Source: Chiloscyllium plagiosum (taxonomy: Eukaryota). Taken from it: a stretch of DNA of 20,000 nt. The notes under the pieces are model-generated. The model was not told the DNA's origin, did not search any database, and saw only the letters and a program-made list of their open reading frames with translations. Position 1 is the stretch's first letter, and each line of letters starts with the position of its first letter. Location of the stretch: NCBI RefSeq assembly GCF_004010195.1, contig NC_057760.1, positions 4,093,751 to 4,113,750 of the forward strand, given 5' to 3'. The position numbers were made by a program, and so were the translations under genes. Shown piece after piece: positions 1-20,000 of the stretch.

Positions 1-1632
1 GGATCACGTTGACATAAGTAGGGAAGATGTGTTGGATAGGCTAGAGGTTATTAGGATGGACAAATCCCCAGGACCGGATGAGATCTATCCCAGGTTGCTG
101 AGGGAGGCGAGAGAGGAAATAGCTGGGACCCTGACAGATATCTTTGTGGCATCCTTAAAGACAGGTGAGGTGCCGGAGGACTGGAGGGTTGCTCATGTTG
201 TCCCCCTGTATAAGAAGGGTAGTAGGGATATTCCGGGTAACTATAGACCAGTGAGCTGACGTTGGTGGTGGGAAAGATGCTGGAGAAGGTACTGAGGGAT
301 AGGATCTGTTTATATTTAGAAAAGAATGGGCTTATCAGTGATAGGCAACATGGGTTTTGTACAGGGGAGATTGTGCCTTACCAACTTAATAGAGTTCTTC
401 AAGGAAGTGACCAAGTTGATAGATGAAGGAAGGGCTGTTGATGTCATATATATGGACTTTAGTAAGGTGTTTGATAAGGTTCCCCATGGCAGACTAATGG
501 AGAAAGTGAAGTCATATGGTGTGCAGGGTGTTCTAGCTAGGTGGATAAATAACTGTTTGAGCAACAGGAGACAGAGAGTAGTAGTTGAAGGGAATTTCTT
601 GAAATGGAGAAAGGTGACCAGTGTGTTTCACAGGGGTCAGTGTTGGGGCTACTGTTGTTTGTGATAAACATAAATGATCTGGAAGAGGGCACTGTTGGTA
701 TGACCAGTAAGTTTGCAGATGACACAAAGATTGGTGGAGTAGCAGAAAGCATAAGGGACTGTCAGAGAATACAGGAGGATATAGATAGACTGGAGAGTTG
801 GGTGGAAAAGTGGCAGATGGCTTTCAATCCAGACAAATGTGAGATGATGCATTTAGGCAAGATTAATTCCAGAGCGAATTATACAATGAACGGAAAAGCT
901 ATGGGAAAAGTTGATGGGCAGAGACTACTGGGAGTGTAGGTCCATTGTATCCTGAAGGTTGCTGCACAGGTGGATAGAATGGTCAAGAAGGCACATAGTA
1001 TGCTTGCCTTCATTGGACGGGGTTTTGAATATAAGAGCTGGTAAGTCATGTTAAAATTGTACAAGATATTGGTTCGGCCACATTTAGAACACTGTGTACA
1101 GTTCTGGTCCGCACATTACCAAAAGGATGTGGACGCTTTGGAGAGAGTGCAAAGAAGGTTTACAAGGATGTTGCCTGGTATGGAAGGTGCTAGCTATGGA
1201 GAGAGGTTGAGTAGGTCAGGTTTATTTTCATTAGAAAAAAGGAGATTGAGGAGGGGACCTGATTGAGGTTTATAAAATCATGAAGGGTATAGACCGGGTG
1301 GAGAGAGACAAGCTTTTTCCCAGGGTGAAGGATTCAATAACGAGAGGTCACACTTTCAAGGTGAGAGGTGGAAAGTTCAAGGGGGATACACGCGGCTAGT
1401 ACTTCACACACCGGGTGGTGGGTGTTTTGGAACATGTTGCCAGCAGAGGTGGTAGAGGGAGGCACAGTAGATTCATTTAAGATGTGCCCAGATAAATGCA
1501 TGAGTAGGTGGGGAGCAGAGGGATACAGATGCTTTGGAATTGACCGACAGGTTTAGACAGTACATTTGGATCGGCTCAGGCTTGGCGGGCCGAAGGGCCT
1601 GTCCCTGGGTTGTAAATTTTCTTTGTTCTTTG
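1..1632 (+). mobile_element. CR1-clade (HER1-like) LINE, 3' part of ORF2 (RT) plus 3' tail, inactivated
   Basis: ORF fragments DKSPGPDEIYPRLLRE, GNYRPVS, CLTNLIEFF, DFSKVFDKVPH, QGSVLG, KFADDTK (FADD at 712-723), LVRPHLEHCVQFW; several frameshifts and stops; 3' tail GGGCCGAAGGGCCTG...TTCTTTGTTCTTTG. The 5' end runs off the window. Confidence 0.95.
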
Positions 1633-2254: not shown

Positions 2255-2400
2255 CATGCTTTTCTTGGCTCTACTGTTGGTGGTCGTACTATCGGCTGCC
2301 CGGGTCCTGAGCTCTGGCATTACTTCCCTAAATCTCTGTCTGTCTGTCACCTTTTAAAATGCTTTTCAATTTATTTGTTTACTTGATTCGAGTTCACTGT
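2255..2400 (+). mobile_element. L2-type LINE 3' end fragment, degraded
   Basis: TGTTGGTGGTCGTACTATCGGCTGCCCGGGTCCTGAGCTCTGGCATTACTTCCCTAAA...CCTTTTAAAATGCT matches the 'GGRAFS..GP.LWNSLP' L2 ORF2 end pattern. Confidence 0.55.
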
Positions 2401-3000
2401 AGTCAGACAACCTCAAGCAGTGACTTCTCTTCCTGTCTTTGCAGATTTACCTCCAGAATTCCTTGGGGATTGAGCTTTTGGTTCCTCATATTTTTTACGC
2501 ATGTGCTGATTCGTGGAATTAAAACACCGCATCAAGTTCCACTGACATGTTGATGATGATGACATGTTCCACTGCCCCTCACCCACTGCTGTTGACATCT
2601 TCTCTGTATCAGATTGGTCAGGCTTCGTGTTTGACATGAGACGTTTGATGAACTCAACCTCCTTCAGTGAATCATAGAGGAGCTTGAAGCCATAGTCCTT
2701 TGCCCCAGCCATAAGCTCTGGCCTTGCAACATCAACATCCCCTGTTTTCTTGGTTGCTGCGTCAGGCTGAAACTGACAGGGTGCAGCATCTGTAAACCGA
2801 GGTGAATCAGAATCTGATTCTGAAGACTACATGTATATCTTCACTCCCTTAGTCCATTGCTGTCTGACCTTCTTTCTCTGCTTCACTGAGCTGCTGCTAA
2901 AATCCTCATTCCTGCAGGTCTCCTGTTCTTATATTCCCTTTAGTTGCCCTTCTGTAATGTCCTTCCTCAGAAAACTGATCATTCAGAAAATTGCTAATAT

Positions 3001-3101: not shown

Positions 3102-3372
3102 TTCTTTATGTATTCTATCTCATTCAGTGCTGTCCAAGTTCATTCACACTGGCTTCCTATCCCCAATGCATTGATTTAAATTTGTCATTGTTTTCAAATT
3201 CCTTTCAGGGTTGTGTCTCTGTGACCAACTCCAATTTCAGATACCTTCACATGTCCTTCAGTCTAATTCTAGCCTCTTAGAAGTCAGTGGTAACAAATTG
3301 AATACTACTGAGCTTTCCTTGAAATCCAACTCCTTATTTCCAGTGCCCTAAATGACAGCCTTGTTCCCCTAG

Positions 3373-3519
3373 GTTTGCAGCTGACTTTTGATGTGAGGAA
3401 GAAATACCAGCAGATGAAAGGTTTTGGAGGTGCGATCACTGATGCTGCAGCTATCAACATTCTCTCACTTTCTGCTGGGTCCCAGGAAAATCTTCTCCGA
3501 TCCTACTTTTCCGAAGAAG
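3373..3519 (+). CDS. GBA1: Glucosylceramidase (GH30), exon equivalent to human exon 4
   Basis: cctag|GT...GAAG|gtttgt; 147 nt; [49 protein letters not shown] versus human KGFGGAMTDAAALNIL...SYFSEEG. Confidence 0.97.
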
Positions 3520-3671
3520 GTTTGTGTGGATCAAAATTAAAGCATGCTGCAAAAGACCAGGAATTATTAACAGGCCCCTGTGTGGTTATATCTTCCTTGT
3601 CATAGCGTCCACAGAAAAGCTCAGCTTTGGAAACACTGACACATTCATCTTGCCAATTTTTCCGAATGCAG

Positions 3672-3805
3672 GAATTGAGTACAATATTATCCGTGTACCG
3701 ATGGCGAGCTGTGATTTTTCAACACGTGTGTACACTTATGATGACCATTCTGGAGACCTGGATCTGCAACACTTCAGTTTGACAGAGGAAGACACCAAAA
3801 TGAAG
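3672..3805 (+). CDS. GBA1: Glucosylceramidase, exon equivalent to human exon 5
   Basis: tgcag|GA...ATGAAG|gttaaa; 134 nt; [44 protein letters not shown]. Confidence 0.97.
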
Positions 3806-4106
3806 GTTAAATGCTTGCCCTTCTTTGCACGTTTGATAGGAACAATTGGACATTTGGGAGGGAAGGGATAGTGTCAGCCTTAGCCTTCCTGCGACAGCAG
3901 CCTTTCCCTGATTTGGCTTCTTCCGTCTCTCCCACATTGCCTCTCCTTCCTCTGTTTTCATGTCCTTTCTACCACTGCCCCCTCACATTTCCCCCCCTTG
4001 CCCTTCCCTCAGTGTCTTCCTTCAGTGCCTCCTCCTGTTCTCCCCTTCACGCCCATCCCCTGGTGTTCCTCATCTCCTGAGCTCACTCAGCTCCCCTTTA
4101 TCCTAT

Positions 4107-4316
4107 GGAGGAGAAAGTGAGGTCTGCAGATGCTGGAGATCAAAGTTGAAACTTTATTGCTGGAACAGCACAGCAGGTCAGGCAGCATCCAGGGAACAGG
4201 CGATTCGACGTTTTGGGCACAGGCCCTTCTTCAGGAAGGGCCTGTGCCCGAAACGTCGAATCTCCTGTTCCCTGGATGCTGCCTGACCTGCTGTGCTGTT
4301 CCAGCAATAAAGTTTC
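4107..4316. mobile_element. Fold-back (inverted-repeat) Penelope-like terminal fragment, copy A, with 15-bp TSD
   Basis: 82-bp inverted arms 4148-4229 / 4235-4316 (2 mismatches, 5-nt loop); TCCCCTTTATCCTAT at 4092-4106 and 4315-4329; same sequence family as the PLE 3' ends at 15055 and 19818. Confidence 0.88.
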
Positions 4317-4469
4317 CCCTTTATCCTATCCCTTCTCTTCTTTCCATTGCCATTTGTCTAGCCATTTTCCTGCATTTTTATAAGCCCAAGAATTGACCTT
4401 AGCATAACTCCACTGGTGGAATGTGAACACTCCCATTCAAATCTGATCTTTTTTTTCTTCTCCAACTAG

Positions 4470-4642
4470 ATCCCAATTATTCAAGCGGCCAAAGCAGTCT
4501 CCAAACGTCCCATGTCCTTGTTTGCGAGTCCATGGACTGCTCCACCCTGGATGAAAACAAGCAATTCAACAATTGGGAAGGGGACTTTGAAGGGGAAGCC
4601 TGGAGGAAAATACTACAAGTCATGGGCAAAGTATTTCATCAG
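4470..4642 (+). CDS. GBA1: Glucosylceramidase, exon equivalent to human exon 6
   Basis: Polypyrimidine tract, ctag|ATC...ATCAG|gtgaaa; 173 nt; IPIIQAAKAVSKRPMSLFASPWTAPPWMKTSNSTIGKGTLKGKPGGKYYKSWAKYFIR (not in the ORF track in this frame). Confidence 0.97.
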
Positions 4643-5462
4643 GTGAAACAGACACTTTTATCTCCCTGCCCAAGGTGCACTGGGACAAATCGGTTTGAAT
4701 CTCTTTCAGGGCCTTTTGGGAGAAGGCGATGCTGTGCAAATCAGTTTGAGAACTGGCAGCTCATTGGTAACTGTGATTTGGTTTGTGTGGTTTTGTTCTT
4801 TAAGATGAAAATCTGTTGAATGGAAAAGGTCAAGTGCAGATGAAAAGTAAACACATTTAAAAATTTTTTTTTGCTTTTTTTCACCTGTCTGGTCTCTAAC
4901 CTGAGCATTTCTTGTGTCAAGTTGTAAGTCTCTTTGTACACAAATGAACAGTCAGAAATATCGATCCATTTCTCAGAGGGTGCACACATATAAAGTGACT
5001 GATTTCTGAGTATAACACTGTATTCTCTTCCTGTGTCCTGTCACTCCTTGAACGTTTCCAAAGGCCATATTTTACCTGGAAGGGATCAAGTCCTTTAACC
5101 AATTTTACACATAAATCCCTACATATTCCCTCCCTGCCACATGCTGGGAACACACAGCGTGTGATTGATGGTTCACTTCAGAGCTTTAAACTCAGCTGCT
5201 GGTTTTGAATTAGGTTCTCAACAGAAAAGGCAACAATTTTTGAGTTCCTAATCAAAAGTATATTCTTGTGGAAGAATAAAATTTAATTGAATTTGGTATT
5301 GACAATTTCCCATCAATCTTGTTTCACAAACTCTATTCTCCCCTCTTCCCCCATTCGCCCCATCCCGCCCCCCTTGCTTTCTCTCGGTTTTTTTTCCTGC
5401 TGCTCTTTCTTTTGCTCATAGTTTACTTCTCCATCTCTCTTTTCATCCCTCTCTCTTTCCAG

Positions 5463-5700
5463 GTTTCTGGATGAATATGCAAAACACAACCTCACATTTT
5501 GGGCATTGACAGCACAGAATGAGCCCACCACAGGAATGCTGACTGATTATAGCTTCCAGTGCATGGGCTTTACAGCAGAGATGCAGCGAGATTTCATTCT
5601 GCTTGACCTTGGGCCTGCATTACAGAGCAGTGCTCACAAGGACGTGCAGCTTATGATCCTTGATGATCAAAGACTCTTGTTGCCCTATTGGGCAAACGTG
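5463..5700 (+). CDS. GBA1: Glucosylceramidase, exon equivalent to human exon 7 (acid/base Glu235)
   Basis: ttccag|G...GTG|gtgagt; 238 nt; [24 protein letters not shown]...[18 protein letters not shown] glutamate codon at 5521-5523. Confidence 0.97.
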
Positions 5701-6252
5701 GTGAGTGTGATTTGAGATGAACTCTCAAAAACAACAGCTACATTTGAATGGGTATGAAGAGCAGCTTCTTGTTGGTAACCTGTTAAGCTATTCAGTATAA
5801 AGAATGCTTCTTTGCTGTATACATCTGCAAATACTGAACTTTGCCGGCAACACAGATTCCAGTCAAATGAAACAGTGTTGAAATGACCATTGCAGAGCAC
5901 CAGTTCAGGAGTGTTGGTATGGATGGTCTTGAAATGTGTGCAAGGGACTATGGTAATGGGAGGGATGGGCAGGGCCAAGGCCAAGAGGTGGCTGCTCAGG
6001 AGAATGGACAAGACCAGGACACCCAGCTGAGAGTCTTGTGGGGAAGGAGATTGATTGCATGCATGGGTATGCACACCAAGCATTTAGTGCACATTTTGTC
6101 CTGATCTGAACCCCAACAATGAATGAAAAGCAAGTGCAGTCATTTGGAAACCTTCAGAGTCTGAAGGTGTTTTATGCAGTCTGTCCAACACTGAATGTCA
6201 CAAAGATTCTGCAACACTGACATTAAAACATCTTTTCTCCCTATCCCACTAG

Positions 6253-6477
6253 GTCTTGAGTGATGTGCGTGTTGCTCAGTATGTACATGGCGTTGCAGTG
6301 CACTGGTACCTCGATATGCTGACTCCAGCTGACAAAACTCTGGGCAGCACACAGGAGCTTTTCCCAGAATATTACCTGTTTTCCACAGAGGCCTGCACTG
6401 GATACTTGCCGTGGGAACACACAGTGCAATTGGGAAGTTGGGAGCGAGGTGCCATGTACAGCTATGACATGATTCAG
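6253..6477 (+). CDS. GBA1: Glucosylceramidase, exon equivalent to human exon 8 (nucleophile Glu340)
   Basis: actag|GTC...CAG|gtcagt; 225 nt; VLSDVRVAQYVHGVAVHWYLD...FSTEACTG...LGSWERG...YDMIQ; Glu codon at 6388-6390. Confidence 0.97.
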
Positions 6478-6898
6478 GTCAGTGGGTGAGAGGGAGAATG
6501 GGAAATGAACTGAAATGAGTTGAGCAAGAATGAGCCATGAGTCCTCCTGTGTGGAGCCCCCAGGTGGTGATGGTTAGACTCTGCAATGTGAACTACAGTA
6601 AGTTTGGTACAGTTTTGGATTTGTGATGGGTATGTTATAGAGTCATAGAGATTGTCTGAAGGGGAATAAACCTAAGTATTACCATTTAGCCCCTCTCCAG
6701 TGTCTTGTAAATAGTGTCCTCGGCAGAAGCTGTTCAGTTAACCTCTACGCCATCAGACAACAGAGATCAAAACTTCACTGGCTTTTCTGTGGTCATCAGC
6801 CACAGCTGCAAAGCATGAACATGGAGATAGAAAACCCAGTGAAAGTGGTACTGGTGAAAACTAAGGAGAGAAGCAGACCGGAGAGCTTTCAGCAAGGT

Positions 6899-6926
6899 TG
6901 GGGGGGGGGGGGGAGGGGGGAGGGGT
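6899..6926 (+). repeat. Poly-G / G-rich tract
   Basis: G14-A-G6-A-G4 run seen directly. Confidence 0.85.
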
Positions 6927-7049
6927 AAGGATCACATTTGAGAAAATGTGATTAAATTGAATAGTGAAGATATGAGACTAGAGAAAGTTGGCCATCGGGG
7001 CAATGATCAGAGTACGACAGAAAAGGATGGGGCAGAGGCATAGTCAATG

Positions 7050-7379
7050 GGGAGGTGATGGCCTAGTGATATTATCACTGGACTGTTAATCCAGATACCC
7101 AGATAATGTTCTAGGGACCTGCGTTCAAATCCCACCACGGCAGATGGTACAGTTTGAATTCAATAAATATCTTGAATTAAGAATCTAATGATAACCGTGA
7201 ATTCTTTGCCAATTGTCAGAAAAACCCATCTGGTTCACTCACTTCCTTTAAGGAAGGAAACTGCCATCCTGACCTAGTCTGGCCTCCATGTGACTCTAGA
7301 CCCACAGCAATGTGATTGGCTCTTAACTGCCCTCTGGGCAATAAATACTTCATAGCCATCACATGAATGAATTAAAAAA
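7050..7379 (+). mobile_element. tRNA-derived SINE, near full length, L2-like tail
   Basis: A box TGGCCTAGTG near 7059, B box GTTCAAATCC near 7123, 3' end CATGAATGAATTAAAAAA. Confidence 0.8.
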
Positions 7380-7414
7380 CAGCATCATCAGATGATGCTG
7401 TTGATTACAACATT

Positions 7415-7530
7415 GACAACTCAGGGCTCTGTATTTGAATGGACTCTAGAATCTGGAATAAGACTGATGAATTGAGAACAGTAAATCGAAAAAAAACAAG
7501 TGTGATATAGTCACAATTGCAGGAACATCC
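7415..7530 (+). mobile_element. CR1 ORF2 endonuclease N-terminal remnant
   Basis: With frameshifts reads LRALYLNG..IWNKTDELR..IEKNKCDIVTIAGT, resembling the CR1 'LYLNARSI.NK.DEL...YD.IAITETW' motif. Confidence 0.55.
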
Positions 7531-7544
7531 AATGTCAGAATTGT

Positions 7545-8057
7545 TAAAGTATAAGGAGGCCATTTGGCCCATTGTATTTGTGGTGCCTCTCTAAGCAAGC
7601 ATCTTGTAGTGCCATTCACTTGCTTGCTCCCTTTAGGCTCCGGAATTTGTTCATTTCTGATTCTCTTTTGAAAGTGCCTGTTGGCTCCTCCAGACACTGG
7701 GGTGGTGCATTCCAGACCTTAATGGATCCTAATGTGAATCCAGTCTGTCAATGAGAGAGAATCAAGGCACCTTTCTTTCTCAATGGGAGTTTTGGCCAGT
7801 GAAGAACCCCACAATAAACTTTCCGGCCAGTTCGATAAACATCTGTGAATCTAACCATTTTGTGCCACTCAGCCAGTTTTATATCCATGTTGCTCTGGTC
7901 CCTTTTATTCAATGAGCTCTAATTTTGCTCACAAGTTCATTTGCAGCATTGCATCAAATGTCTTATATATACCAGATCCACAGCACTGCCTTGATTGACC
8001 CTCTCTGTTATCTCTTCAATCAATTCCAGAAAATTAGTTAAATGTGAGTTTCCTTTA
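7545..8057 (-). mobile_element. Old CR1 fragments (3' tail ~7545-7730; RT piece ~7850-8057)
   Basis: GGAGGCCATTTGGCCC tail motif reversed; minus strand KGNSHLTNFLELIEEITERVNQGSAVD. Confidence 0.7.
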
Positions 8058-8126
8058 GGAATCTGATTGAAGGTAGAGAGAAGATATGGTGTACATGGAT
8101 TTTAGCAAGGCGTTTGATAAGATTTC

Positions 8127-8335
8127 TTCGAGGAGAAAGTGAGGTCTGCAGATGCTGGAGATCAAAGTTGAAACTTTATTGCTGGAACAGCACAGCAGGT
8201 TAGGCAGCATCCAGGGAACAGGAGATTCGACGTTTCGGGCACGTTCCTGAAGAAGGGCCTGTGCCCGAAACGTCGAATCTCCTGTTCCCTGGATGCTGCC
8301 TGACCTGCTGTGCTGTTCCAGCAATAAAGTTTCAA
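8127..8335. mobile_element. Fold-back Penelope-like terminal fragment, copy B, with 15-bp TSD
   Basis: 75-bp inverted arms 8168-8242 / 8261-8335 (1 mismatch, 18-nt loop); GTTTGATAAGATTTC at 8112-8126 and 8336-8350. Confidence 0.9.
8243..8278 (+). ncRNA. Putative minimal type I hammerhead ribozyme (PLE type)
   Basis: gttc-CTGAAGA-a-GGGC(ctgt)GCCC-GAAA-cg-TC-gaat: CUGANGA and GAAA core, stem II, palindromic ACGU in place of stem III, GUC cleavage triplet, 4-bp helix I. Activity not shown. Confidence 0.7.
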
Positions 8336-9359
8336 GTTTGATAAGATTTCCCATTTTAGGCTCATTCAGGAGTAAGGAGGCAAGGGATACAGGGAAATCT
8401 GGCTGTCTGGATACTGAATTGGCTGGCCCATTGAAAACAGAGGGTGGTAGTAGATGGAAAGTATTCAGCCTGGAGCTCGGTGACCAGTGGTGTTCCATAG
8501 GGATCTGTTCTGGGGCCTCTGCTCTTTGTGATTTTTTTTTATATAAACGACTTGGATGAGAAAGTGCAAGGGTAGGTTAGTAAGTTTGCCGATGACAAGA
8601 CGCTTGGTGGAGTTGTGGATAGTGTGGAGGACTGTTGTCAATTGCAAAGGACGTTGACAGGATGCAGAGCTGGACTGAGAAATAGCAGATGGTATTCAAC
8701 CTGGAAGAGTGGAAGATCAAATCTGAATGCAGATTACAGGGTTAAAGACAGGATTCTTGGCAGTGTGGAGGAACAGAGGGATCTTGGGGTCCACGTCCAT
8801 AGATCCCTCAAAGTTGCCACCCAAGTTGATAGGATTGTAAAAATGCAAATGTCATGTTGGCTTTCATCAGCAGGGGATTGAGTTTGAGCCATGAGGTTAT
8901 GCCGCAGCTCTATAAAGCCCTGGTCAGACCACCCTTGGAATATTGTGTTCGGTTCTAGTCTCCTCGTTATAGGAATGATGTGGAAGTTTTAGAGAGGGAT
9001 CAGAGGAGATTGACCAGGATGCTGCCTGGACTTGAGGGCATGTCTTATGAAGAAAGGTTGAGGGAACTAGAGCTTTTTTCATTGGAGTGAAGAAGGGTGA
9101 GAGGCAACTTGATAGAGGTGTACAAGATGATGAGGGGCATAGGTAGAGCGAATAGTCCAAGACTTGTTTCCAGGGCTGAAATGGCAATCACAAGAGGCCA
9201 TAATTTTAAGGTGATTAGAGGAAGGTTTAGGGGAGATGTTAGAGGTAGGTGCTTTGCACAGATAGGACTCTTGAATAGGCACATGGATGATAATAAAATG
9301 AAGGGTATGTAGGTTAGGCTGATCTTCGATTTTGATAAAAGGTCAGCACAACATGGTTT

Positions 9360-9912
9360 CAGTATAAAGGATACAAATGACATCTCAGAAATAATTGTGA
9401 ATCCTCTGTGATTTAAACAACTAAAAATGTCAGGGAAAGGATACTGAGATGGTCATTTCAACTAAAAGCTAACCAACAATAGACTTCACCCAAAAAAGAA
9501 GTGACTGATGAGATTGAGATTAACTTTTCCAGAATCTAGGGAATTTTGCAAGGTCCATTTAGATTGGAAATTAGTGGATATGATTCCTCTATTCAAGAAA
9601 CTGGAGAGTTAGAAAGCAAGAAATAGCAGGCCAGATAGCTTAACATCTGACATAAGAAAAATTCTAGAATCTATTGTTAGAGATACAGCAGGACATTTTG
9701 AAAGTCTCAAAGCAATCAGGGAGAGTAATTTTATGAAGGAGAAATCACATTTGACTTATTTATTGGAGTTCATTTGAGTTCATCGCAGACATTGGTCGAT
9801 AATGGGAGCCTGTACTTGGATTTGCAGAGTAAATGTTACTGTAACAAGAGCTGGAGGTCTAGGATGTAACATATTAGCATAGGTAAAGGACTGCTTTGCT
9901 GAGCAATGAAGG
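9360..9912 (+). mobile_element. Highly degraded CR1 RT fragment
   Basis: DWKLVDMIPLFKK, RPDSLTS..KILESIVRD and FMKEKSHLTYLLEF remnants. Confidence 0.7.
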
Positions 9913-9959: not shown

Positions 9960-10960
9960 TAAAAATGCTGCCAACTGGGACTAGATTAATTTAGGGTATC
10001 TGGTAGGACTGGGTGAGTAGGACTGAGGGGTATGTTTCCATGCTGTATTGATTAGGGACTGCCAGCACGGATTTGTGAAGGGTAGGTCTTGCCTTACAAG
10101 TCTTATTGAATTCTTTGAGGAGGTGACCAAATATGTGGATGAGGGTAGAGCAGTGGATGTAGTATACATGGATTTTAGTAAGGCATTTGATAAGGTTCCC
10201 CATGGTAGGCTTATGCGGAAAGTCAGGAGGCACGGGATAGAGGGAAATTTGGCCAATTGGATAGAAAACTGGCTAACCGGACGAAGGCAGAGAGTGGTGG
10301 TAGATGGTAAATACTCAGCCTGGAGCACAGTTACATTTGGAAGGACAAATAAGAATGCAGAATACAGGGTTAACGGTAGGGTTCTTAGTAAGATGGAGGC
10401 GCAGAGGGATCTTGGGGTCTACGTTCGTAGATCTTTGAAAGTTGCCTCTCAGGTGGATAGAGCTTGTAAGAAGGCCTATGATGTATTAGCGTTCATTAAC
10501 AGAGAGATTGAATTCAAGAGTCGTGAGGTGATGTTGCAGCTGTACAGGATCTTGGTTAGGCCACATTTGGAGTACTGTGTGCAGTTCTGGTCGCCTCGCT
10601 TTAGGAAAGATGTGGAAGCTTTGGAGAGGGTGCAGAGAAGATTTACCAGGATGTTGCCTGGAATGGAGAATAGGTAGTACGAGGATAGGTTGAGAGTGCT
10701 AGGCCTCTTCTCATTGGAACGGCGAAGGATTAGGGGTGACTTGATAGAGGTTTATAAGATGATCAGAGGAATAGATAGAGTAGACAGTCAGAAACTTTTT
10801 CTCCGGGTACAACAGAGTGTTACAAGGGGACATAAAAGGGGACCTTTAAGCTGCAATTGGATGGGTGCTTAAGCTAGGACAAATACTCGGCACAACATCG
10901 TGGGCCGAAGGGCCTGTTCTGTGCTGTATTGTTCTATGTTCTATATCTCTATGACTCTGT
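9960..10960 (+). mobile_element. Old CR1 3' tail (9960-10047, resuming ~10943-10960) with a younger internally deleted CR1 (10048-10942) inserted
   Basis: Tail ...TTTCCATGCTGTA | TATCTCTATGACTCTGTG is split by a CR1 with a 209-aa ORF (QHGFVKGRSCLT...RPHLEYCVQFW) and its own tail GGGCCGAAGGGCCTGTTCTGTGCTGTATTGTTCTATGTTCTA. Confidence 0.88.
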
Positions 10961-12047: not shown

Positions 12048-13630
12048 CCTTAGTTTTATCCGTCTGCACCTGGACCTCAATGAAGTTTGGGCACAGTATA
12101 CTGAATTCTTCTTCTGTGCCATCGCCTCTATGCCCATTTCTTTGAATAGAAGTCCTCTGCTTCTCCCACAGATCTCTGCTCCTCAGATGCTGCCTGAACT
12201 GCTGTGCTTTTCCAGCACCACTCTAATGCAGAATCTGGTTTCCAGCATCTGCAGTTATTGTTTTTGCCACGGATCTCTTCACCCACCTCCAACACATTCC
12301 CTCCACTTGGGCTCTCTTTCTGGCCTTTAACCTGCACTCAGTCTGTTCATTAAGAAGATTCAACATGATGTTGGTCAGCTTAATCTCTCTGTCCACCCTG
12401 CTCCTCCCCCCCACCCCCCTGGTATATCTCTTGTATATCAATGACATCATTGCTGCTTCCCTGTTTTGTCTGGAATTGGAAAAGTTTATCCATTTTCACT
12501 TGCAGTTTCCACCCTGCTTTCATCTTCACCTAGACCATCTCTGATTTGCTTCTTTTCCATCACCGATATCTCTGTTTTCATTTCTGGGGAAAAGCTGGCT
12601 GCCAATGTTCACAATGTAACCACCGACTCCCACTGTACTTTGTACATCCTCACAATATGCTTCCTGTGAAGACCCTATTTCAAGCTCCTAGTTTCTCCAT
12701 CTCTGTTGGATCTGTTCCGATGAGGCCAGTTTCTCCAAGGGAGCCTCCAAAAGCTCCACCTTTTTCCTTGAACAAGGATTCCCCGTCAGCATAGTTGATC
12801 AGGCTCTCAGTCATGTCTGACTAATCTCCCATACTTCAGCCGTCCCACAACAGCGATCGTGTCTCTCTGATCCTTACGTATCACCCCACCAGTCTTCACA
12901 GCTAAAGGATCATTAACTGCCATATCTGCCACTTCCAGTGGGATGCCACCACCAGACTAATATCCCCCTTCCCTCCCTTGTCAGTCTTCCACAAGGACTG
13001 TTGCCTCTGGAACACCTTGGTCCACTCCTCTTACACTCCCAACATCTTCCCATACTGTCTATGTAACTTTTAAGATGCAATATCTACCTGCTTACTTCCT
13101 CTCTACTCATTATCCAAGGTCCAGATGAAGCAGTGATTTACCTGCACTTCACTCAATCTAGTCTACTATATTCACTGCTCACAATGTGGTCTGCTCTACA
13201 CTGGGAAAAGAAACGCAGGCTGGGTGACTGTTTTCCACAGAATGTGATCCTGAGCTTGCTGATGCCTGTCACCTCAACACACCACTGTATTCCCTGTCCA
13301 AATTCTCTGTTATGGTCTTGCTGCAGTGTTCCAGAGCGGGAGTGCAAGCTCATGTTCCGCTTGAGAACCCTGCAATCTCCATACTGAGTTCAATAATTTT
13401 GGGGCTTGAGTACCTTCTCCTATGTCCTTACTCATTCCCCACACCAGGCCTTGTCATCACATGGGCTGCTGTCACAAACAACCCATTCTCAGTCATGAAT
13501 GGTCCCCATTACCAGAGATTGATTCTTCCAGGTTGACCCCTCTCTGTTTCTTTGTCTGTCCAACTTATTTTATTTCTTTGTCTCTGGGCTCCATCTTCAC
13601 CTATCATTTACTCTTCCCCTTTTCAGATAA
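12048..13630 (+). mobile_element. Degraded Penelope-like element (RT plus GIY-YIG endonuclease), internally deleted
   Basis: Remnants LSFIRL..LNE, YINDII (decayed YIDD, ~12434), ISVFISGEKLAANVH..TDSH, FLHLCWICSDEA, FTCTSLNLVYYIHCSQCGLLYTG..RRLGDCF (GIY-YIG), LMFRLRTLQ; many stops and frameshifts. Confidence 0.85.
12178..12266 (+). mobile_element. Short PLE terminal fragment inserted in the older PLE, 12-bp TSD
   Basis: GATGCTGCCTGAACTGCTGTGCTTTTCCAGCA...CCAGCATCTGCAG flanked by CCACAGATCTCT (12166-12177) and CCACGGATCTCT (12267-12278). Confidence 0.7.
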
Positions 13631-13771: not shown

Positions 13772-13935
13772 AATCTGAATAATTATGTAACTGGTTGGAC
13801 AGACTGGAACATTGCATTGAATTTGCAAGGTGGCCCGAACTGGGTGAAAAACTTTGCTGACAGTCCAGTCATAGTGAACAGTCATCAGGACACCTTCTAC
13901 AAACAACCTATGTTCTACCACATGGCCCACTTCAG
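13772..13935 (+). CDS. GBA1: Glucosylceramidase, exon equivalent to human exon 9
   Basis: ttgcag|AAT...TTCAG|gtagaa; 164 nt; [55 protein letters not shown]. Confidence 0.97.
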
Positions 13936-14149
13936 GTAGAAGCCATTTATCTGACTCATGGTGTAATTCTGCAGGGCCTGGTGTTTGCACAAGTGCATTT
14001 GTTGTACAAGTTAACACTTCTTAAAGGGAGTTAATGTTTGAGCTGTAGTGTGATGTCTCACTATCTCTGGCTGTAGTATCAGTTAATGGGAGCCTCCCAC
14101 TGTCTCCTCCCAGAGGCACACTTACCTTCTCTATCTCTTCTTGGTCATA

Positions 14150-15051
14150 ATTAGAACAGTACAGGCCCTTCGCCGCTCGATGTTCTGCTGACCTTTGATC
14201 AAACTAACCTACATACCCTTCATTTTACTACCATCCATGTGCCTATTCAAGAGTCGCTTAAATGTCCCTAATATATCTGACTCTCCTACCACCATTGGCA
14301 GTGCATTCCACACACCTACCACTCTGTGTAAATAATCTACTTCTGACATTTCCCTTAAGCCTTCCGACAATCACCTTGCAATTATGCCCTGGTTTAGCCA
14401 TTTCTGCCCTGGGATCAAGTCTCTGACTATTCACTCTATCTATGCCTCTCATCATCTTGTACACCTCTATCAAGTTGCCTCTCACCCTGCTTCAGTCCAA
14501 TGAGAAAAACCTTAGCCCACTCAACCTTTTTTCATAAAACATGCCCTCCAGTCCAGGCAGCATCCTGGTAAATCTCCTTTGCACCCTCTCTTCCACATCT
14601 TTCCTATAGTGAGGCAACCAGAATTGAACACAATATTCCAAGTGTGGTCTAACCAGGGCTTTATAGAGCTGCAGCATAACCTCTCAGCTCTTAAACTCAA
14701 TCCCCCTACTAATGAAAGCCAACACACCATACTCCTAAGCAACCCTGTCAACTTGGATGGCAACTTTGAGGTATCTATGGACGTGGACTCCCAGATTCCA
14801 CTTCTAAGAATCCTGCCTTTATCCCTGTAATCTGCATTCAAATTCCACCTTCCAAAATGAATCACTTCACACTTTTCCAGGTTGAACTCGATCTGCCACT
14901 TGTCAGCCCAGCTCTGCATCCTGTTAATGTTCCCGTTGCAACCTACAATAGTCCTCTGTACAGTCCACCACTCCACCAACCTTTGTGTCATCAGCAAACT
15001 TAGTAACCCACCCTTCCACTTCCTCATCCAAGTCACTTATAAAAATCACAA
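14150..15051 (-). mobile_element. 5'-truncated CR1 LINE, apparently the same subfamily as 8058-9356
   Basis: Minus strand KFADDTK, LQLYKALVRPHLEYCVQFW, RGNLIEVYKMMRGIDRV; tail ending near 14150. Confidence 0.93.
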
Positions 15052-15054
15052 GTT

Positions 15055-15430
15055 AAAAGTGGAGAGTCAAAAAGTGTGGTGCTGGAAAAGCACAGCAGGT
15101 TAGGCAGCATCTGAGTCAACATTTTGGGCATAAGCCCTTCATTGGGACTGCGGGGAGGCCTAAGGAGTCTGAAAGATAATAGGAGGGAGTTAGGGTTGCC
15201 GTTGGGGGTGGGGGGGAGGAAGTGGGGGGTGGATAGGTGGGAAGGAAGATGGACATGAACAAGTTCAAGAGAGCAGTGCCAAGTTGGAGGGTTGGATCTG
15301 GGATAAGGTGGGAGGAGGGGAGATGAGGAAATTGGTGAAATCGATGTTGATCCCTTGTGGTTGCAGGGTCCCATGGTGGAAGATGAGGCATCCTTTCTCC
15401 AGGTGTTGGTTGGTTGGCTAGGATTTGGCA
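15055..15430 (-). mobile_element. Penelope-like element 3' end (GIY-YIG C-terminus, 3' UTR, terminal repeat)
   Basis: Minus strand LIFHHGTLQPQGINIDFTNF followed by a pyrimidine-rich UTR and the GATGCTGCC...TTTTCCAGCA terminus with a decayed hammerhead. Confidence 0.8.
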
Positions 15431-15530: not shown

Positions 15531-15689
15531 TAAAGGGGCAACCCCTTATTCTGAGACTCTCCCACAAAGGGAGCATAATAAATAAAACCAGGTAAATATT
15601 CCTGTTAATGAAATTCCAATACGGTCCAGTGTCATAAGCCTTTGTTTATATCGAGAATACATTCCATTTGCAATCATCAATCCAAATTG

Positions 15690-16440
15690 ATGGTGAGGAG
15701 GAAGGTTACAGGGCAATATAAACATGTTGGACCCCTGGGCAGATTAGAGGCTGATAGAATTTAACCCGATTAATTGTGAGCACTTTGAAGAAGTAACAAG
15801 ACATGAGAGTATTCCATGAATAGCAGGACACTAGGAAGTTAAGAGGAACAGAGAGTTCTTGGGGCTTATGTCCATATATCCCTGAAGGTGGCAAGATGGG
15901 TTAATATTAACTAGGAGAAAGTGAGGACTGCAGATGCTGGAGATCAGAGCTGAAAAATGTGTTGCTGGAAAAGCGCAGCAGGTCAGGCAGCATCCAAGGA
16001 GCAGGAGAATCGACGTTTCGGGCACGCTTGCCTTTATCAGGAGTGGCATAGCTTGTGGAAACAAGGAAGTTATCTTGGAGCTGTACCTAACTTTGGTGAG
16101 GCCACAGCTGGAGTACTGTGTGCTGCTCTGGTCATCATGCTGTAGAAAGGATTTGATTGTACTGGAGGGGGATGCGGAGGTGATTCTCCAGAATGTTCCC
16201 TGAGATGGAGCCTTTCAACATTGGTGAGAGGGCGCGTAAGTTTGAGTTGTTTTCTTTGGAGCAGAGAAGGCGAACAGGGGACCTGATTGAGTGGATAAGA
16301 TTGATGGGCTGGGCATGGTTGATCGAGAGCAGTCGTTCCCCAGAGAGAGAGAGATAGATCAAAGTGTTTGTATCATTCAGTCTTCACGATGACAGAGGTA
16401 GGTCTTGCGAGAACATAGCTACCACCTGCCTGAAATGGGG
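15690..16440 (+). mobile_element. Old CR1 ORF2 3' fragment, interrupted at 15913-16024
   Basis: EEQRVLGAYVHISLKVA before the insertion; LAFI..NKEVILELYLTLVRPQLEYCVLLWS after it. Confidence 0.8.
15913..16024 (-). mobile_element. Single-arm PLE terminal fragment
   Basis: AGGAGAAAGTGAGGACTGCAGATGCTGGAGATC...GACGTTTCGGGCA; same family as copies A and B, truncated within hammerhead stem II; no TSD seen. Confidence 0.8.
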
Positions 16441-16559: not shown

Positions 16560-16676
16560 TAAATTTGTTCCTGAGGGTTCTCGACGAGTCGGCCTTGATC
16601 CCAATGCTGTTACTGAGCTGGAATCTGTGGCTTTTCTCCGCCCAGATGGATGTGCAGTCGTCAATGTCCTGAACTG
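16560..16676 (+). CDS. GBA1: Glucosylceramidase, exon equivalent to human exon 10
   Basis: ctgcag|T AAA TTT...AAC TG|gtgaga; 117 nt; KFVPEGSRRVGLDPNAVTELESVAFLRPDGCAVVNVLN versus human [38 protein letters not shown]. Confidence 0.96.
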
Positions 16677-16724
16677 GTGAGAAGCAGCTGTCACAATTTA
16701 AACACTCCATTTGTTCTCAGAGTT

Positions 16725-19270
16725 AGTACAACACAGGAAGAGGCCAGTCTGCTCATCATATTTGCACTTGTAAACACGGCTCTAATTATATGAATCTAAT
16801 TTTCCAGTCCTTGGCCCAGAGCCCTGGAGATTTTGGCAGCACGAGTGAATATTTAAAAATGCTTTGAGTTTGTCTGACTCACCCTTCTGACAGCCAGAGA
16901 GTTCCAGACATTTGCAGTCCTCTTGAGTGAAAATATTTCTTAATGATCAGGGAGAAGGGAAGGCCGATCAGGGATAGTGGAGGGAACTTGTGCGTGGAGC
17001 CTAAGCAGATAGGGGAAGCCCACAATGAGTTTTTTGCTTCAGTTTTCAACAAAGGGACCTTGTTGTGAATGAAAACTTTGAGGAGCTGGGATACAGGCTT
17101 GACCAGATAAAGATTGATGAAGTTGATGTGCTGGAAATTTTGGAAAACATTAAGATTGATAAGTCCCCAGGGCCAGACCAGATTTATCATAGGCTGCTCT
17201 GGGAAGCAAGAAAGGAGGTTGCTAAACCACTGCCAAGGATATTTGCTTCCTCACTCTCCACAGGAGTCGAACCGGAGGATTGGAAGGAGGCGAATGTTGT
17301 TCCTCTTTTCAAGAAGGATAATAGGGAAATCCTTGGCAATTACAGACCAGTCAGTCTTATGTCTGTGGTCAGCAAAGCTTTGGAAAGAATTCTCAGGAAT
17401 AGGATTTATCACTATTTGGCAAAGCATAGTGTGATTAAAGGCAGTCAGCATGGCTTTGTGAGGGGCAGGTCATGCCTCTCAAATCTTATTTAGTTCTTTG
17501 AGGAGGTGTCAAGACAGGTTGACGAAGGTCGAGCAGTGGATGTGGTGTATATGGACTTCAGCAAGGCATTTGATAAGGTTCCCCATGGTAGGCTCATTCA
17601 TAAAGTCAGGAAGTATGGGATACTGGGAGATTTGGCTATCTGGATTCCGAATTGGCTGGCTGACAGAAGGCAGAGAGTGGTTATAGATGGAAAGTATTCT
17701 GCCTGGAGGTCATGTTGAGTGGGGGTCCCGCAGGGCTCTGTTCTTGGGCCTCTGCTCTTTGTAGTTTTTATAAATGACTTGGATGAGGAGATTATGGGGT
17801 GGGTTAGTAAATTTGCAGATGACACAAAGGTTAGAGGTGCAGTCGATAGTATAGAGGGCTACTGCAGGCTGCAGCGCGACATAGACAGAATGCAGAGCTG
17901 GGCTGAGAAATGGCAGATGGGGTTTAACCTGGATAAATGCAAAGTGATGCATTTTGGAAGGTCGAACTCGAATGCTGAATATAGGATTAAAGACAGGATT
18001 CTTGGCAGTGTGGAGGAACAGAGGGATCTGGGTGTGCAAGTACATAGCTCCCTCAAAGTTACCACCCAGGTGGATAGGGTTGTTAAGAAAGCATATGGTG
18101 TTTTAGCTATCGTTAACAAGGGGATAGAGTTTAAGAGCCTCAAGGTTTTGCTGCAGCTCTACAAGACCCTGATGTGACCACACGTGGAATATTGTGTCCA
18201 GTTCTGGTCGCCCTATTATAGGAAAGACACAGAGGCTTTGGAGACGGTGCAAAGAAGGTTTACCAGGATGCTGCCTGGACTAGAGGGCTTGCCTTACGAA
18301 GAAAGGTTGAATATGCTCTGACTTCTCTCTCTGGAGAGGAGGAGGAAGAAAGGAGACCTGATCGTGGTATACAAGATGAGTGGAATAGATCGAGTCAATA
18401 GCCAGAGACTTTTTCGCAGGGCAGGATTGACCGGTACGAGGAGTCATAGTTTGAAGATATTAGGAGGAAGGTATCAAGGAGACATCAGAGGTAGGTTCTT
18501 TATGCAGAGAGTTGTGAATGCGTGGAATGCGTTGCCAGCGGTGGTGGTGGATGCAGAGTCATTGGGGACATTTCAGCAACTGCTGGACATGCACATGGAT
18601 AGCAGTGAATTGAGGGGTGTGTAGGTTAAGCGATTATATTTTACATTAGATTAAACCTCGGCACAACATCGTGGGCCAAAGGGCCTGTTCTGTGCTGTAT
18701 TTTTCTATGTTCTATATTCTAACTCTCCTCTTAGCTTATTACGTTTTATCATAAATCTATGCCCCTTAGTTATGGACTCCTCTACAATTGGAAAAACTCC
18801 CTTCCTATTCACCCTCTCTATGTATGTCATAGTCTTGCAGACCTCAATCAGGTTCCCTCTCAATCTGCACTGGTCCAAGGTAAACAATCCCAAACCATCC
18901 TCGTCAATCTTTTCTTGTAGCTCAGACTATCCAGACTGGGCAGCATCGTGGTGAATCTCCTCTGTACCTTGTTAAGAGTGATCACATCCTCCTTATGATA
19001 TGATGACCAGAACTGCACACAGTCCTCCAGATGTGTGGCCTTACCAGTGTTTTATCCGGATCCAGCATAATCTCCTTGATCTTGCATTTATAAGCTGTGA
19101 CGTATGATACAGTATCCCATGAGCCTTCAGAACCCCCTCTTCTCCCTGTCCTACCTTAATGGACCTGTGAATGTATTCATCAAGGTCCCTCTGATCTTCA
19201 GTACTTGGTCCTACCATGCATTGTGTCAATCCTTGCCTTGTTAGCCTCTCCAAATACATTACCTCACAGT
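16725..19270 (-). mobile_element. Old minus-strand CR1 (16725-16941 and 18715-19270) split by a younger CR1
   Basis: Reversed tail at ~16730-16941; MGLFTLDQCRLRGNLIEVCKTM and EDQRDL..IHRSIKV on the minus strand after 18715. Confidence 0.75.
16942..18714 (+). mobile_element. Relatively young 5'-truncated CR1 LINE (RT plus tail), inactivated
   Basis: DKSPGPDQIY, GNYRPVSL, QHGFVRGRSCL, GVPQGSVLGPLLF, KFADDTK; in-frame stops at 17491 and 18175 plus frameshifts; tail GGGCCAAAGGGCCTGTTCTGTGCTGTATTTTTCTATGTTCTA. Confidence 0.95.
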
Positions 19271-19817: not shown

Positions 19818-20000
19818 GCTGAGATGGAAATGTGTTGCTGGAGAAGCGCAGCAGGTCAGGCAGCATCTAGGGAACAGGAGAATCGACGTTTCGGGCATTA
19901 GCCCTTCTTCAGGAATGAGGAAAGTTTGTCCAGCAGGCAAAGATAAAAGATAGGGAGGAGGGACTTGGGGGAGGGACGTCGGAAATGTGATAGGTGGAAA
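19818..20000 (-). mobile_element. Penelope-like element 3' terminus, continuing beyond the window
   Basis: Same terminal repeat family followed by purine-rich sequence (pyrimidine-rich 3' UTR on the minus strand). Confidence 0.82.
19881..19916 (-). ncRNA. Putative minimal hammerhead ribozyme (PLE type)
   Basis: Minus strand attc-CTGAAGA-a-GGGC(taat)GCCC-GAAA-cg-TC-gatt; core intact, one mismatch in helix I. Confidence 0.65.

What the first reader, a model, noticed from the sequence alone, without database searches (positions are those of the whole stretch)
4092..8350. Young ~210-bp fold-back Penelope-terminus insertions with 15-bp TSDs: candidate non-autonomous hairpin retroelement family
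Seen: two nearly identical insertions (4107-4316 and 8127-8335). Each has a ~40-nt unpaired extension starting GAGGAGAAAGTGAGG and a 75-82-bp near-perfect inverted repeat. Each is flanked by its own 15-bp direct repeat (TCCCCTTTATCCTAT; GTTTGATAAGATTTC). The outer ends almost coincide, but the fold-back points differ (5-nt versus 18-nt loop), both lying at the hammerhead motif. Established: Penelope-like elements form direct or inverted pseudo-LTRs, and Drosophila Penelope has a short tail on one repeat. Inference: these are not copies of one fixed MITE; they either form anew at each insertion by inversion at the ribozyme, or are a short non-autonomous family mobilised by PLE RT/GIY-YIG.
Basis: partly seen in the sequence, partly recalled or inferred. 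Interest (0 to 1): 0.72.

Follow-up and report, generated by a model that had tools for sequence, protein, structure and literature searches.

The report
Tiny hairpin Penelope retrotransposon insertions
Two short hairpin-shaped stretches in the introns of a fish gene are real, recent insertions of the tail end of a Penelope-like jumping gene, laid down in a mirror-image pattern already described for this class, so they are a clean miniature example of a known process and probably not a new mobile family.

Summary
Observation confirmed. Both 208-209-nt inserts are head-to-head hairpins (75-82 bp) with a 41-nt unpaired tail and exact 15-bp target duplications. Insert 1 is absent from a related species, whose contig carries the 15-mer once; both its junctions occur in a second sample. 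The arms are Penelope-like element (PLE) termini: they carry a minimal hammerhead, and related arms in the window follow a GIY-YIG C-terminus. Inverted truncated copy + one-sided 30-40-nt tail + TSD is the published PLE insertion pattern. Fold-back points differ between the two copies and across 15 of 15 listed junctions from other copies, so most hairpins are probably built at insertion rather than copied as one unit. All four arms keep the ribozyme cut site; starts cluster at its front edge. Best model: both nicked strands prime short cDNAs at the two known start sites, then join. Insert 2 cannot come from simple self-priming, since each arm holds bases the other lacks. A short non-autonomous template is not excluded: no parent ORF of this young subfamily was seen, and a few junctions are multi-copy. 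This scan noted the same thing before on other DNA of this genome.

The parts
4092..4106 (+). Insert 1, left copy of 15-bp target-site duplication
   Evidence: Exact repeat; single copy at the empty site in organism B (X13 record 2)
4107..4147 (-). Insert 1, unpaired PLE 'tail' (41 nt, with one extra base at 4107); far RT start site
   Evidence: Unpaired in fold; loose ends of other copies pile at 4107-4111 in all 4 runs
4148..4237 (-). Insert 1, tail-bearing arm of the pLTR, running back to sense position 1 (3 nt before the hammerhead core); core G12 mutated at 4214
   Evidence: Alignment A1; does not pass the hammerhead descriptor
4235..4314 (+). Insert 1, tail-less arm, starts at sense position 9; shares GAA (4235-4237) with the other arm
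   Evidence: right junction in X4 record 15
4315..4329 (+). Insert 1, right copy of TSD; imperfect microhomology to the element's continuation
8112..8126 (+). Insert 2, left copy of 15-bp TSD, inside a CR1-type LINE RT remnant
   Evidence: 3 of 3 CR1 paralogs in the window examined show the uninterrupted site
8127..8167 (-). Insert 2, unpaired tail (41 nt; the outer TTC resembles the element's own continuation)
   Evidence: loose-end consensus before 4108 ends in TTT in X4 and X9
8168..8242 (-). Insert 2, tail-bearing arm, stops at sense position 18 (stem II of the hammerhead)
8243..8335 (+). Insert 2, one extra G plus tail-less arm starting at sense position 1
8243..8278 (+). Complete minimal type I hammerhead motif: stem I 4 bp, CUGAAGA, extra A, stem II 4 bp (G10.1-C11.1), GAAA, palindromic ACGU, cut site after 8274
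   Evidence: Only descriptor hit in the window; minimum-energy fold has this topology but is no more stable than shuffles, z -0.09; features as in PMC4209133
8336..8350 (+). Insert 2, right copy of TSD; 6-nt match to the element's continuation after one mismatch
3806..4469 (+). Host intron (GT..AG) of a glucocerebrosidase-like (Glyco_hydro_30) gene that holds insert 1
   Evidence: Spliced contig joins 3803 to 4468 (X9 record 18); splice dinucleotides; Pfam PF02055 on flanking exons
15063..15405 (-). Older PLE 3' end linking the arm to coding sequence: GIY-YIG C-terminus (15405-15304), 3' UTR, decayed hammerhead, tail-less arm
   Evidence: tblastn E 2.7e-5 to P0004, and hits from 3 further of 8 PLE proteins at the same place; arm alignment
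19822..20000 (-). PLE 3' end of a sister subfamily: 3' UTR, hammerhead, tail-less arm
   Evidence: 83% to the arm; 3' UTR matches the read consensus beyond 4237 at 23 of 30
15913..16025 (-). Solo tail-bearing arm of a sister subfamily (88%), cut at the same stem II position as insert 2's left arm, no TSD seen
12176..13420 (+). Decayed, internally deleted EN+ PLE: pLTR (76% to the arm) then RT-end, linker and GIY-YIG remnants
   Evidence: 115 homologues; 5 of 5 long ones scanned carry RVT_1 plus C-terminal GIY-YIG; tblastn 12410-13241

Best explanation
Each insert is a single, minimal integration product of an endonuclease-bearing Penelope-like retrotransposon; the hairpin is made during integration and is normally a dead end. 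Steps: (1) the GIY-YIG endonuclease cuts the two target strands 15 nt apart [TSD shown; enzyme inferred]; (2) each freed 3' end primes reverse transcription on uncleaved element RNA, one at the far start site (gives the tail) and one about 40 nt further in (no tail), the latter perhaps helped by a short imperfect match to the target [two ends shown; priming inferred from in vitro work on the anole element]; (3) both cDNAs are short because they run off, or stall at, a boundary near the front edge of the hammerhead, plausibly the 5' end of a transcript that starts in the pLTR [clustering partly shown; RNA start inferred]; (4) the two cDNA ends are trimmed and joined head to head by end joining, with a 3-nt overlap in insert 1 and one extra base in insert 2 [junctions shown; pathway inferred]. 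The ribozyme is carried along and marks the boundary but does not cut there.
For: Empty orthologous site with one 15-mer. Architecture equals the published PLE pattern: adjacent inverted 5'-truncated copy, 30-40-nt tail at one end, TSD (PMC8557442 passages; PMC3846280). Purified PLE protein nicks and extends both strands, starts at two sites that bound the tail, uses uncleaved RNA and is modelled as a dimer (PMC11167929). Centres vary: sense starts 1/9 in insert 1, 18/1 in insert 2, and 15 different junctions among the 15 listed of 131 in other copies. Insert 2's arms each hold bases the other lacks (tail arm 93-133, tail-less arm 1-17), so neither was copied from the other. One arm in each insert stops at the same base (position 1); three further junctions start at 6, 7 and 8. 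The arms belong to longer elements: 112 RNA reads run on past 4237 into 3' UTR-like sequence, and a related arm follows a GIY-YIG C-terminus. Go-back joints such as 4141 to 4108 fit partial tandems (table 5c; kind not printed).
Against: No ORF was linked to this young subfamily; the protein link runs through older subfamilies (72-88% to the arm). Some listed junctions have depth 50-333 against about 10 for single-copy flanks (e.g. 4189 to 4276, 289 in one contig with 11 letters between), so some centres are multi-copy, which could mean re-amplification of fixed hairpins. The joints were taken at 90% likeness with only 19-26 letters on the short side, so some may be misjoined. 8 of 15 listed junctions turn 24-57 nt into the arm, away from the front edge. 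Microhomology at the tail-less end is weak (p about 0.07 each), and the in vitro study found priming without homology. Only two TSDs were measured. No RNA start was seen (table 6 empty; poly(A) single-cell library). The target sites are not AT-rich (51% and 60% AT against 56% for the window), unlike the in vitro preference.
Confidence: 0.68

Rival explanations
1. Self-priming (snap-back): one cDNA is made from RNA, its end folds back on itself and is copied into the mirror arm. Still formed anew at each insertion.
For: Proposed for head-to-head PLE repeats in PMC3846280 (passage). Insert 1 fits: 3-bp GAA/TTC stem with a 5-nt loop at the centre, the tail-less arm is wholly contained in the tail arm, and it exits at an imperfect match to the target.
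Against: Insert 2 does not fit in either direction without an added later deletion: each arm has bases the other lacks and there is no stem at the join.
Confidence: 0.14
2. Non-autonomous family: a short hammerhead-headed RNA, or a perfect-palindrome master, is mobilised in trans; centres differ because palindromes lose their middles after insertion or because several masters exist.
For: Both inserts are about 209 nt with nearly the same outer ends and share sense position 1, as a perfect-palindrome precursor predicts. Young contigs are plentiful (99%+ alike: 3363 of 26177 laid in X4, 481 of 22360 in organism B). Multi-copy junctions exist. pLTRs suffice for mobilisation in trans (PMC3846280) and non-autonomous PLE derivatives are known (PMC8557442; bioRxiv 10.64898/2026.07.22.740005).
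Against: Both outer ends differ by a few bases between the copies, as separate priming events predict. Many centres and many unequal arm lengths. Solo arms and arms with 3' UTR exist in the window and in reads. Known non-autonomous PLE derivatives (retrozymes) are head-to-tail tandems. An 80-bp duplex RNA would be a poor RT template (inference).
Confidence: 0.14
3. DNA-transposon MITE with terminal inverted repeats.
For: Small size, long inverted repeat, flanking duplication.
Against: The inverted repeat is not terminal (41-nt one-sided tail), TSD is 15 bp, centres vary, arms are PLE termini with a hammerhead.
Confidence: 0.02
4. Assembly or fold-back read artefact.
Against: Both junctions of insert 1, in opposite arm orientation, are in contigs of another sample that differs from the window at a few bases; empty site in organism B; arms differ by 1-2 point changes; exact TSDs.
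Confidence: 0.02

Closest known systems
Insertion architecture of EN+ Penelope-like elements: inverted 5'-truncated copy, one-sided tail, TSD (PMC3846280; PMC8557442; PMC2377424)
   Same: Head-to-head inverted pLTR copies, tail of about 40 nt at one end only, flanking TSD, empty-site proof of the TSD.
   Different: No ORF between the arms: the whole insert is the two pLTR ends. TSD is 15 bp in 2 of 2 cases; the rotifer cases I read are 8-10 bp. Tail 41 nt, at the upper edge of 30-40.
Anole Poseidon element in vitro (PMC11167929)
   Same: Two start sites that bound the tail; both strands extended; uncleaved RNA used.
   Different: In vitro priming showed no homology to the target and preferred AT-rich DNA; here there is weak microhomology at the tail-less end and the two targets are not AT-rich. 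The nearest full proteins to the window's decayed ORF have a CX4CxxC linker (Neptune/Nematis type), not Poseidon type.
Minimal hammerheads of metazoan PLEs (PMC4209133)
   Same: Core boxes, extra base between 9 and 10.1, G10.1-C11.1, palindromic 15.2-16.2, short stem I; that paper also notes pairs of motifs on opposite strands 100-700 bp apart and many solo motifs.
   Different: Stem II is 4 bp here (7-8 bp in the Schistosoma examples). Only one of the four arms keeps a complete motif. Activity untested.
Non-LTR retrozymes (bioRxiv 10.64898/2026.07.22.740005)
   Same: Short, non-coding, type I hammerhead, related to PLE pLTRs, present in a cartilaginous fish.
   Different: Retrozymes are head-to-tail tandems with a hammerhead in each unit; these are head-to-head with one intact motif at most and cannot give a cut-to-cut monomer.
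LINE-1 twin priming inversions
   Same: Two target nicks both prime cDNA; inverted piece; microhomology at internal priming; TSD.
   Different: In L1 the inverted and direct parts come from different stretches of one RNA and there is a poly(A) tail; here both arms copy the same stretch and there is no poly(A).

Membership tests
EN+ Penelope-like element insertion | Terminal sequence belongs to an element encoding RT plus C-terminal GIY-YIG | tested here: met
   For related subfamilies in the window: arm follows a GIY-YIG C-terminus at 15405-15304; remnant 12410-13241 matches RVT_1 + GIY-YIG proteins
EN+ Penelope-like element insertion | An intact parent ORF exists for this exact young subfamily | not testable with these tools
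   No genome held; reads give only 30 letters beyond the arm
EN+ Penelope-like element insertion | Inverted 5'-truncated copy adjacent head to head | tested here: met
EN+ Penelope-like element insertion | 30-40-nt tail at one end only | tested here: met
   41 nt in both inserts; sharp tail end at 4107-4111 in 4 of 4 runs
EN+ Penelope-like element insertion | Target-site duplication made on insertion | tested here: met
   Empty site with one 15-mer in organism B; CR1 paralogs for insert 2
Neptune/Nematis clade of PLEs | CX2-5CxxC motif between RT and EN | tested here: inconclusive
   Present in the two homologues printed, P0004 and P0059, but these match an older subfamily; no RT tree was built
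Minimal type I hammerhead (min-HHR) | Core boxes, extra base 9/10.1, G10.1-C11.1, palindromic 15.2-16.2, stems I and II | tested here: met
   8243-8278; 1 of the 4 arms is complete
Minimal type I hammerhead (min-HHR) | Self-cleavage (as dimer or protein-assisted) | not testable with these tools
   Needs an in vitro assay
Non-LTR retrozyme | Head-to-tail tandem with a complete hammerhead in at least two units | tested here: not met
   Head-to-head; one complete motif in insert 2, none in insert 1
MITE (TIR DNA transposon) | Inverted repeats at both termini and an invariant body | tested here: not met
   One-sided tail; centres differ
Dedicated non-autonomous hairpin retroelement (proposed) | Same centre junction shared by many dispersed copies with their own TSDs | tested here: inconclusive
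   The two inserts differ and 15 of 15 listed junctions differ, but several have multi-copy depth and their flanks were not visible

The most novel reading that the evidence does not exclude
This young subfamily is driven by a short (about 130-nt) capped, hammerhead-headed RNA that starts at an initiator-like TCATTC spanning the ribozyme's front edge and is integrated two copies at a time, head to head, by a PLE RT-endonuclease dimer with a fixed 15-nt stagger; some of the resulting hairpins then re-amplify as units. That would be a PLE-dependent SINE-like family whose genomic form is a ready-made 80-bp duplex-RNA gene, and an in vivo record of twin-primed PLE integration. The initiator label is recalled, the upstream bases come from a sister copy and a read consensus, and the extra G of insert 2 as a copied cap is one case only.
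Probability: 0.2. Interest if true: 0.6.

Novelty: new member of a known kind. Interest (0 to 1): 0.27.

Why it matters
How PLEs make their inverted repeats and tail is still described as undefined (PMC8557442). Very young, very short, very numerous inserts with clean TSDs and empty sites in a sister species are good material to settle it: copies like insert 2 separate two-primer synthesis from self-priming, and the 15-bp TSD reads out the endonuclease stagger in vivo. The inserts also place near-perfect 75-82-bp hairpins in pre-mRNA introns, possible substrates for A-to-I editing or small-RNA production (inference, untested). The pattern itself is published, so this is a useful example, not a new system.

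Tried and rejected
Pattern scans for more copies with flanks found 0 matches in metagenome contigs, viral contigs and prokaryote genomes, as expected for a vertebrate repeat. Rfam gave only sub-threshold miRNA-precursor matches caused by the long stem, and no hammerhead family; rejected as miRNA evidence. Pfam found nothing on 7 of 7 single-frame PLE fragments and 4 of 4 read-through frames; two word-based protein searches gave 0 hits and the Atlas none: the remnant is frameshifted; the full HMMER scan succeeded. Run X9, chosen as a second individual, proved to be spliced RNA and does not cover the flanks, so polymorphism within the species was not tested. No listed holder was on record as RNA. 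Summed contig depth over the arms was not used as a copy number. Neither the 43-nt hammerhead nor the tail stem-loop is more stable than shuffles, so folding energy is no support for them. Cleavage-defined ends rejected. Reading frames through the arm differ between subfamilies, so I could not place the ORF start. Seven literature searches listed no paper on such mini-hairpins in cartilaginous fishes or on 15-bp PLE TSDs; the library is open-access only, Repbase and Dfam could not be searched, and supplements (notably Fig. S2 of PMC11167929 and the tables of the 2026 preprint) were not seen and may bear on this.
Full report
1. The observation. Both inserts are as described. Exact 15-bp direct repeats flank them at 4092/4315 and 8112/8336; 4999 of 5000 random segments of the same length had flanking repeats of 9 bp or less. 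The arms pair over 82 and 75 bp with 5- and 18-nt spacers and leave a 41-43-nt unpaired end. Right arms are identical (0 of 82), left arms differ at 3 of 113.

2. Real and young. I laid four public runs on 3300-5750. A 1418-nt contig of organism B covers 3674-4091 and then, with no letter between, 4315-5361: the empty site, with one copy of the 15-mer; lengths add up exactly. It differs from the window at 22 of about 1400 aligned letters, so the insertion postdates a recent split. A second sample of organism A (same study as the possible source, a few differences from the window) holds both junctions, reading into arms of opposite orientation. No listed contig spans the centre. Run X9 turned out to be spliced RNA; it places insert 1 in intron 3806-4469 of a Glyco_hydro_30 gene but does not test presence. 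The host looks like a cartilaginous fish (recalled resemblance of its repeats; earlier scan notes say the same); no call names it.

3. What the arms are. Read in the sense that contains CUGAAGA, the arm is hammerhead, about 60 nt, then the tail. Insert 2's right arm holds a complete minimal type I motif with every feature listed in PMC4209133 (parts 1-2 of 4 read); it is the only descriptor hit in the window, and its fold is no more stable than shuffles. Four older relatives lie in the window. One (15063-15405, minus strand) follows a GIY-YIG C-terminus and a 3' UTR; another (12176) precedes a decayed ORF whose homologues are RT plus C-terminal GIY-YIG proteins. In RNA reads at least 90% alike to the young arm, 112 run on past 4237 with a consensus matching the 3' UTR at 19916 at 23 of 30 letters. 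So the arms are PLE pseudo-LTR ends. An intact parent of this exact subfamily was not seen.

4. One unit or built each time? Numbering sense position 1 as the base 3 nt before the core, the cut site is after 31. Insert 1 has arms starting at 1 (tail arm) and 9, overlapping by GAA; insert 2 at 18 (tail arm) and 1, with one extra G. All four keep the cut site, so cleavage did not define these ends. Other copies laid on the hairpin give 131 joints, of which the 15 best supported were shown; all 15 join the left to the right arm at different places: 7 with the sense arm starting at or before positions 7-11 (three resolve to 6, 7, 8), 8 turning 24-57 nt in. The reference limits how far upstream a start can be seen, the short sides are 19-26 letters and likeness was 90%, so these are indicative. 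The tail end, by contrast, is sharp: loose ends pile at 4107-4111 in all four runs (24 of 624 loose-end rows shown). Against my reading, several junctions have depth 50-333 where single-copy DNA has about 10; recurrence among many thousands of copies could do this, but so could re-amplification.

5. Mechanism. PMC11167929 (parts 1-2 of 4 read; supplements not seen) shows a PLE protein nicking and extending both strands, starting at two internal sites that bound the tail, on uncleaved RNA. Applied here: a 15-nt staggered cut, one strand primed at the far site, the other about 40 nt in, both cDNAs ending near the hammerhead's front edge, then joined. Insert 2 is the informative case: each arm has bases the other lacks, so the self-priming model offered in PMC3846280 (parts 1-3 of 5 and passages read) cannot make it without a further deletion, whereas insert 1 fits either model. 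Both tail-less ends meet the target at an imperfect match to the element's next bases (p about 0.07 each over 12 registers), weak and at odds with the in vitro finding of no homology. The stop at position 1 may be an RNA 5' end: the bases before it in a sister copy give an initiator-like TCATTC (label recalled), but no start was seen in the one raw RNA run. The target sites are not AT-rich. Confidence in this model 0.68; self-priming 0.14; non-autonomous or palindrome master 0.14; MITE and artefact 0.02 each.

6. Against what is known. Inverted 5'-truncated copy, one-sided 30-40-nt tail and TSD are the standard PLE pattern (PMC8557442, PMC8969392, PMC2377424: passages; PMC3846280). Opposite-strand pairs of minimal hammerheads and many solo motifs were noted in 2014 (PMC4209133). 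Non-autonomous PLE derivatives are known but are head-to-tail (bioRxiv 10.64898/2026.07.22.740005, parts 1-3 of 5; PMC8557442); this fails that test, and the MITE test. What I did not find in seven searches is a description of ORF-less 200-nt hairpins with 15-bp TSDs in this lineage. Earlier notes of this scan describe the same class on other pieces of this genome; they are unchecked notes, read after my first reading was recorded, and not counted as support, though two sharpened my attention on the front-edge clustering.

7. Verdict. Real, recent, correctly spotted; a miniature of a known insertion pattern from a new young subfamily. New member of a known kind, interest 0.27. The value lies in the mechanism test that such copies allow, and in the remaining chance (about 0.2) of a short dedicated template.

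Noticed in passing
window 3443-3805, 4470-, 5463-5702, about 6254-6477, about 13772-13936, about 16560-16680 (+): Exons of a glucocerebrosidase-like gene; Pfam Glyco_hydro_30 on two of them, the later ones read by eye from recalled similarity. Insert 2 lies in the long intron after 6477 by that reading.
   Followed up: partly
window 1-1620, 8060-9360, 10027-10946, 14150-15050 (-), 15650-16380, 16960-18720: Several decayed CR1-type LINE fragments (RVT_1 on 2 of 2 frames scanned); their shared 3' end at 10886-10946 and 18657-18717 is 97% alike. Three of the PLE ends sit in or next to these LINEs.
   Followed up: partly
window 15900-16040: Solo tail arm in a CR1 remnant with no TSD; its inner end shares GGCAC with the target and its outer flank ends in TTAACT, as does the loose-end consensus before 4109 in 3 of 4 runs, so these bases may be part of that subfamily's tail or a target preference.
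   Followed up: partly
joint 4189 to 4276, run X4: One hairpin-type junction with 11 letters between the arms has depth 289 in one contig against about 10 for single-copy DNA: possibly a small hairpin that was itself amplified.
   Followed up: no
window 8243-8278 versus 19885-19919: The young subfamily has a one-base change after the cut site that completes a 4-bp stem I; the sister copy forms only 2 consecutive pairs and fails the descriptor.
   Followed up: no
window 4615-5331: Run X9 (spliced across 3806-4469) has contiguous coverage through sequence 3' of the short exon at 4470, suggesting intron retention or unspliced RNA.
   Followed up: no
window 7040-7350: A tRNA-SINE-like repeat (A and B box look-alikes by eye, recalled) in the same intron as insert 2.
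   Followed up: no
window 2400-2830 (-): A 137-codon stop-free frame of ordinary protein-like composition unlike the surrounding repeats; possibly a retrocopy or an antisense exon.
   Followed up: no
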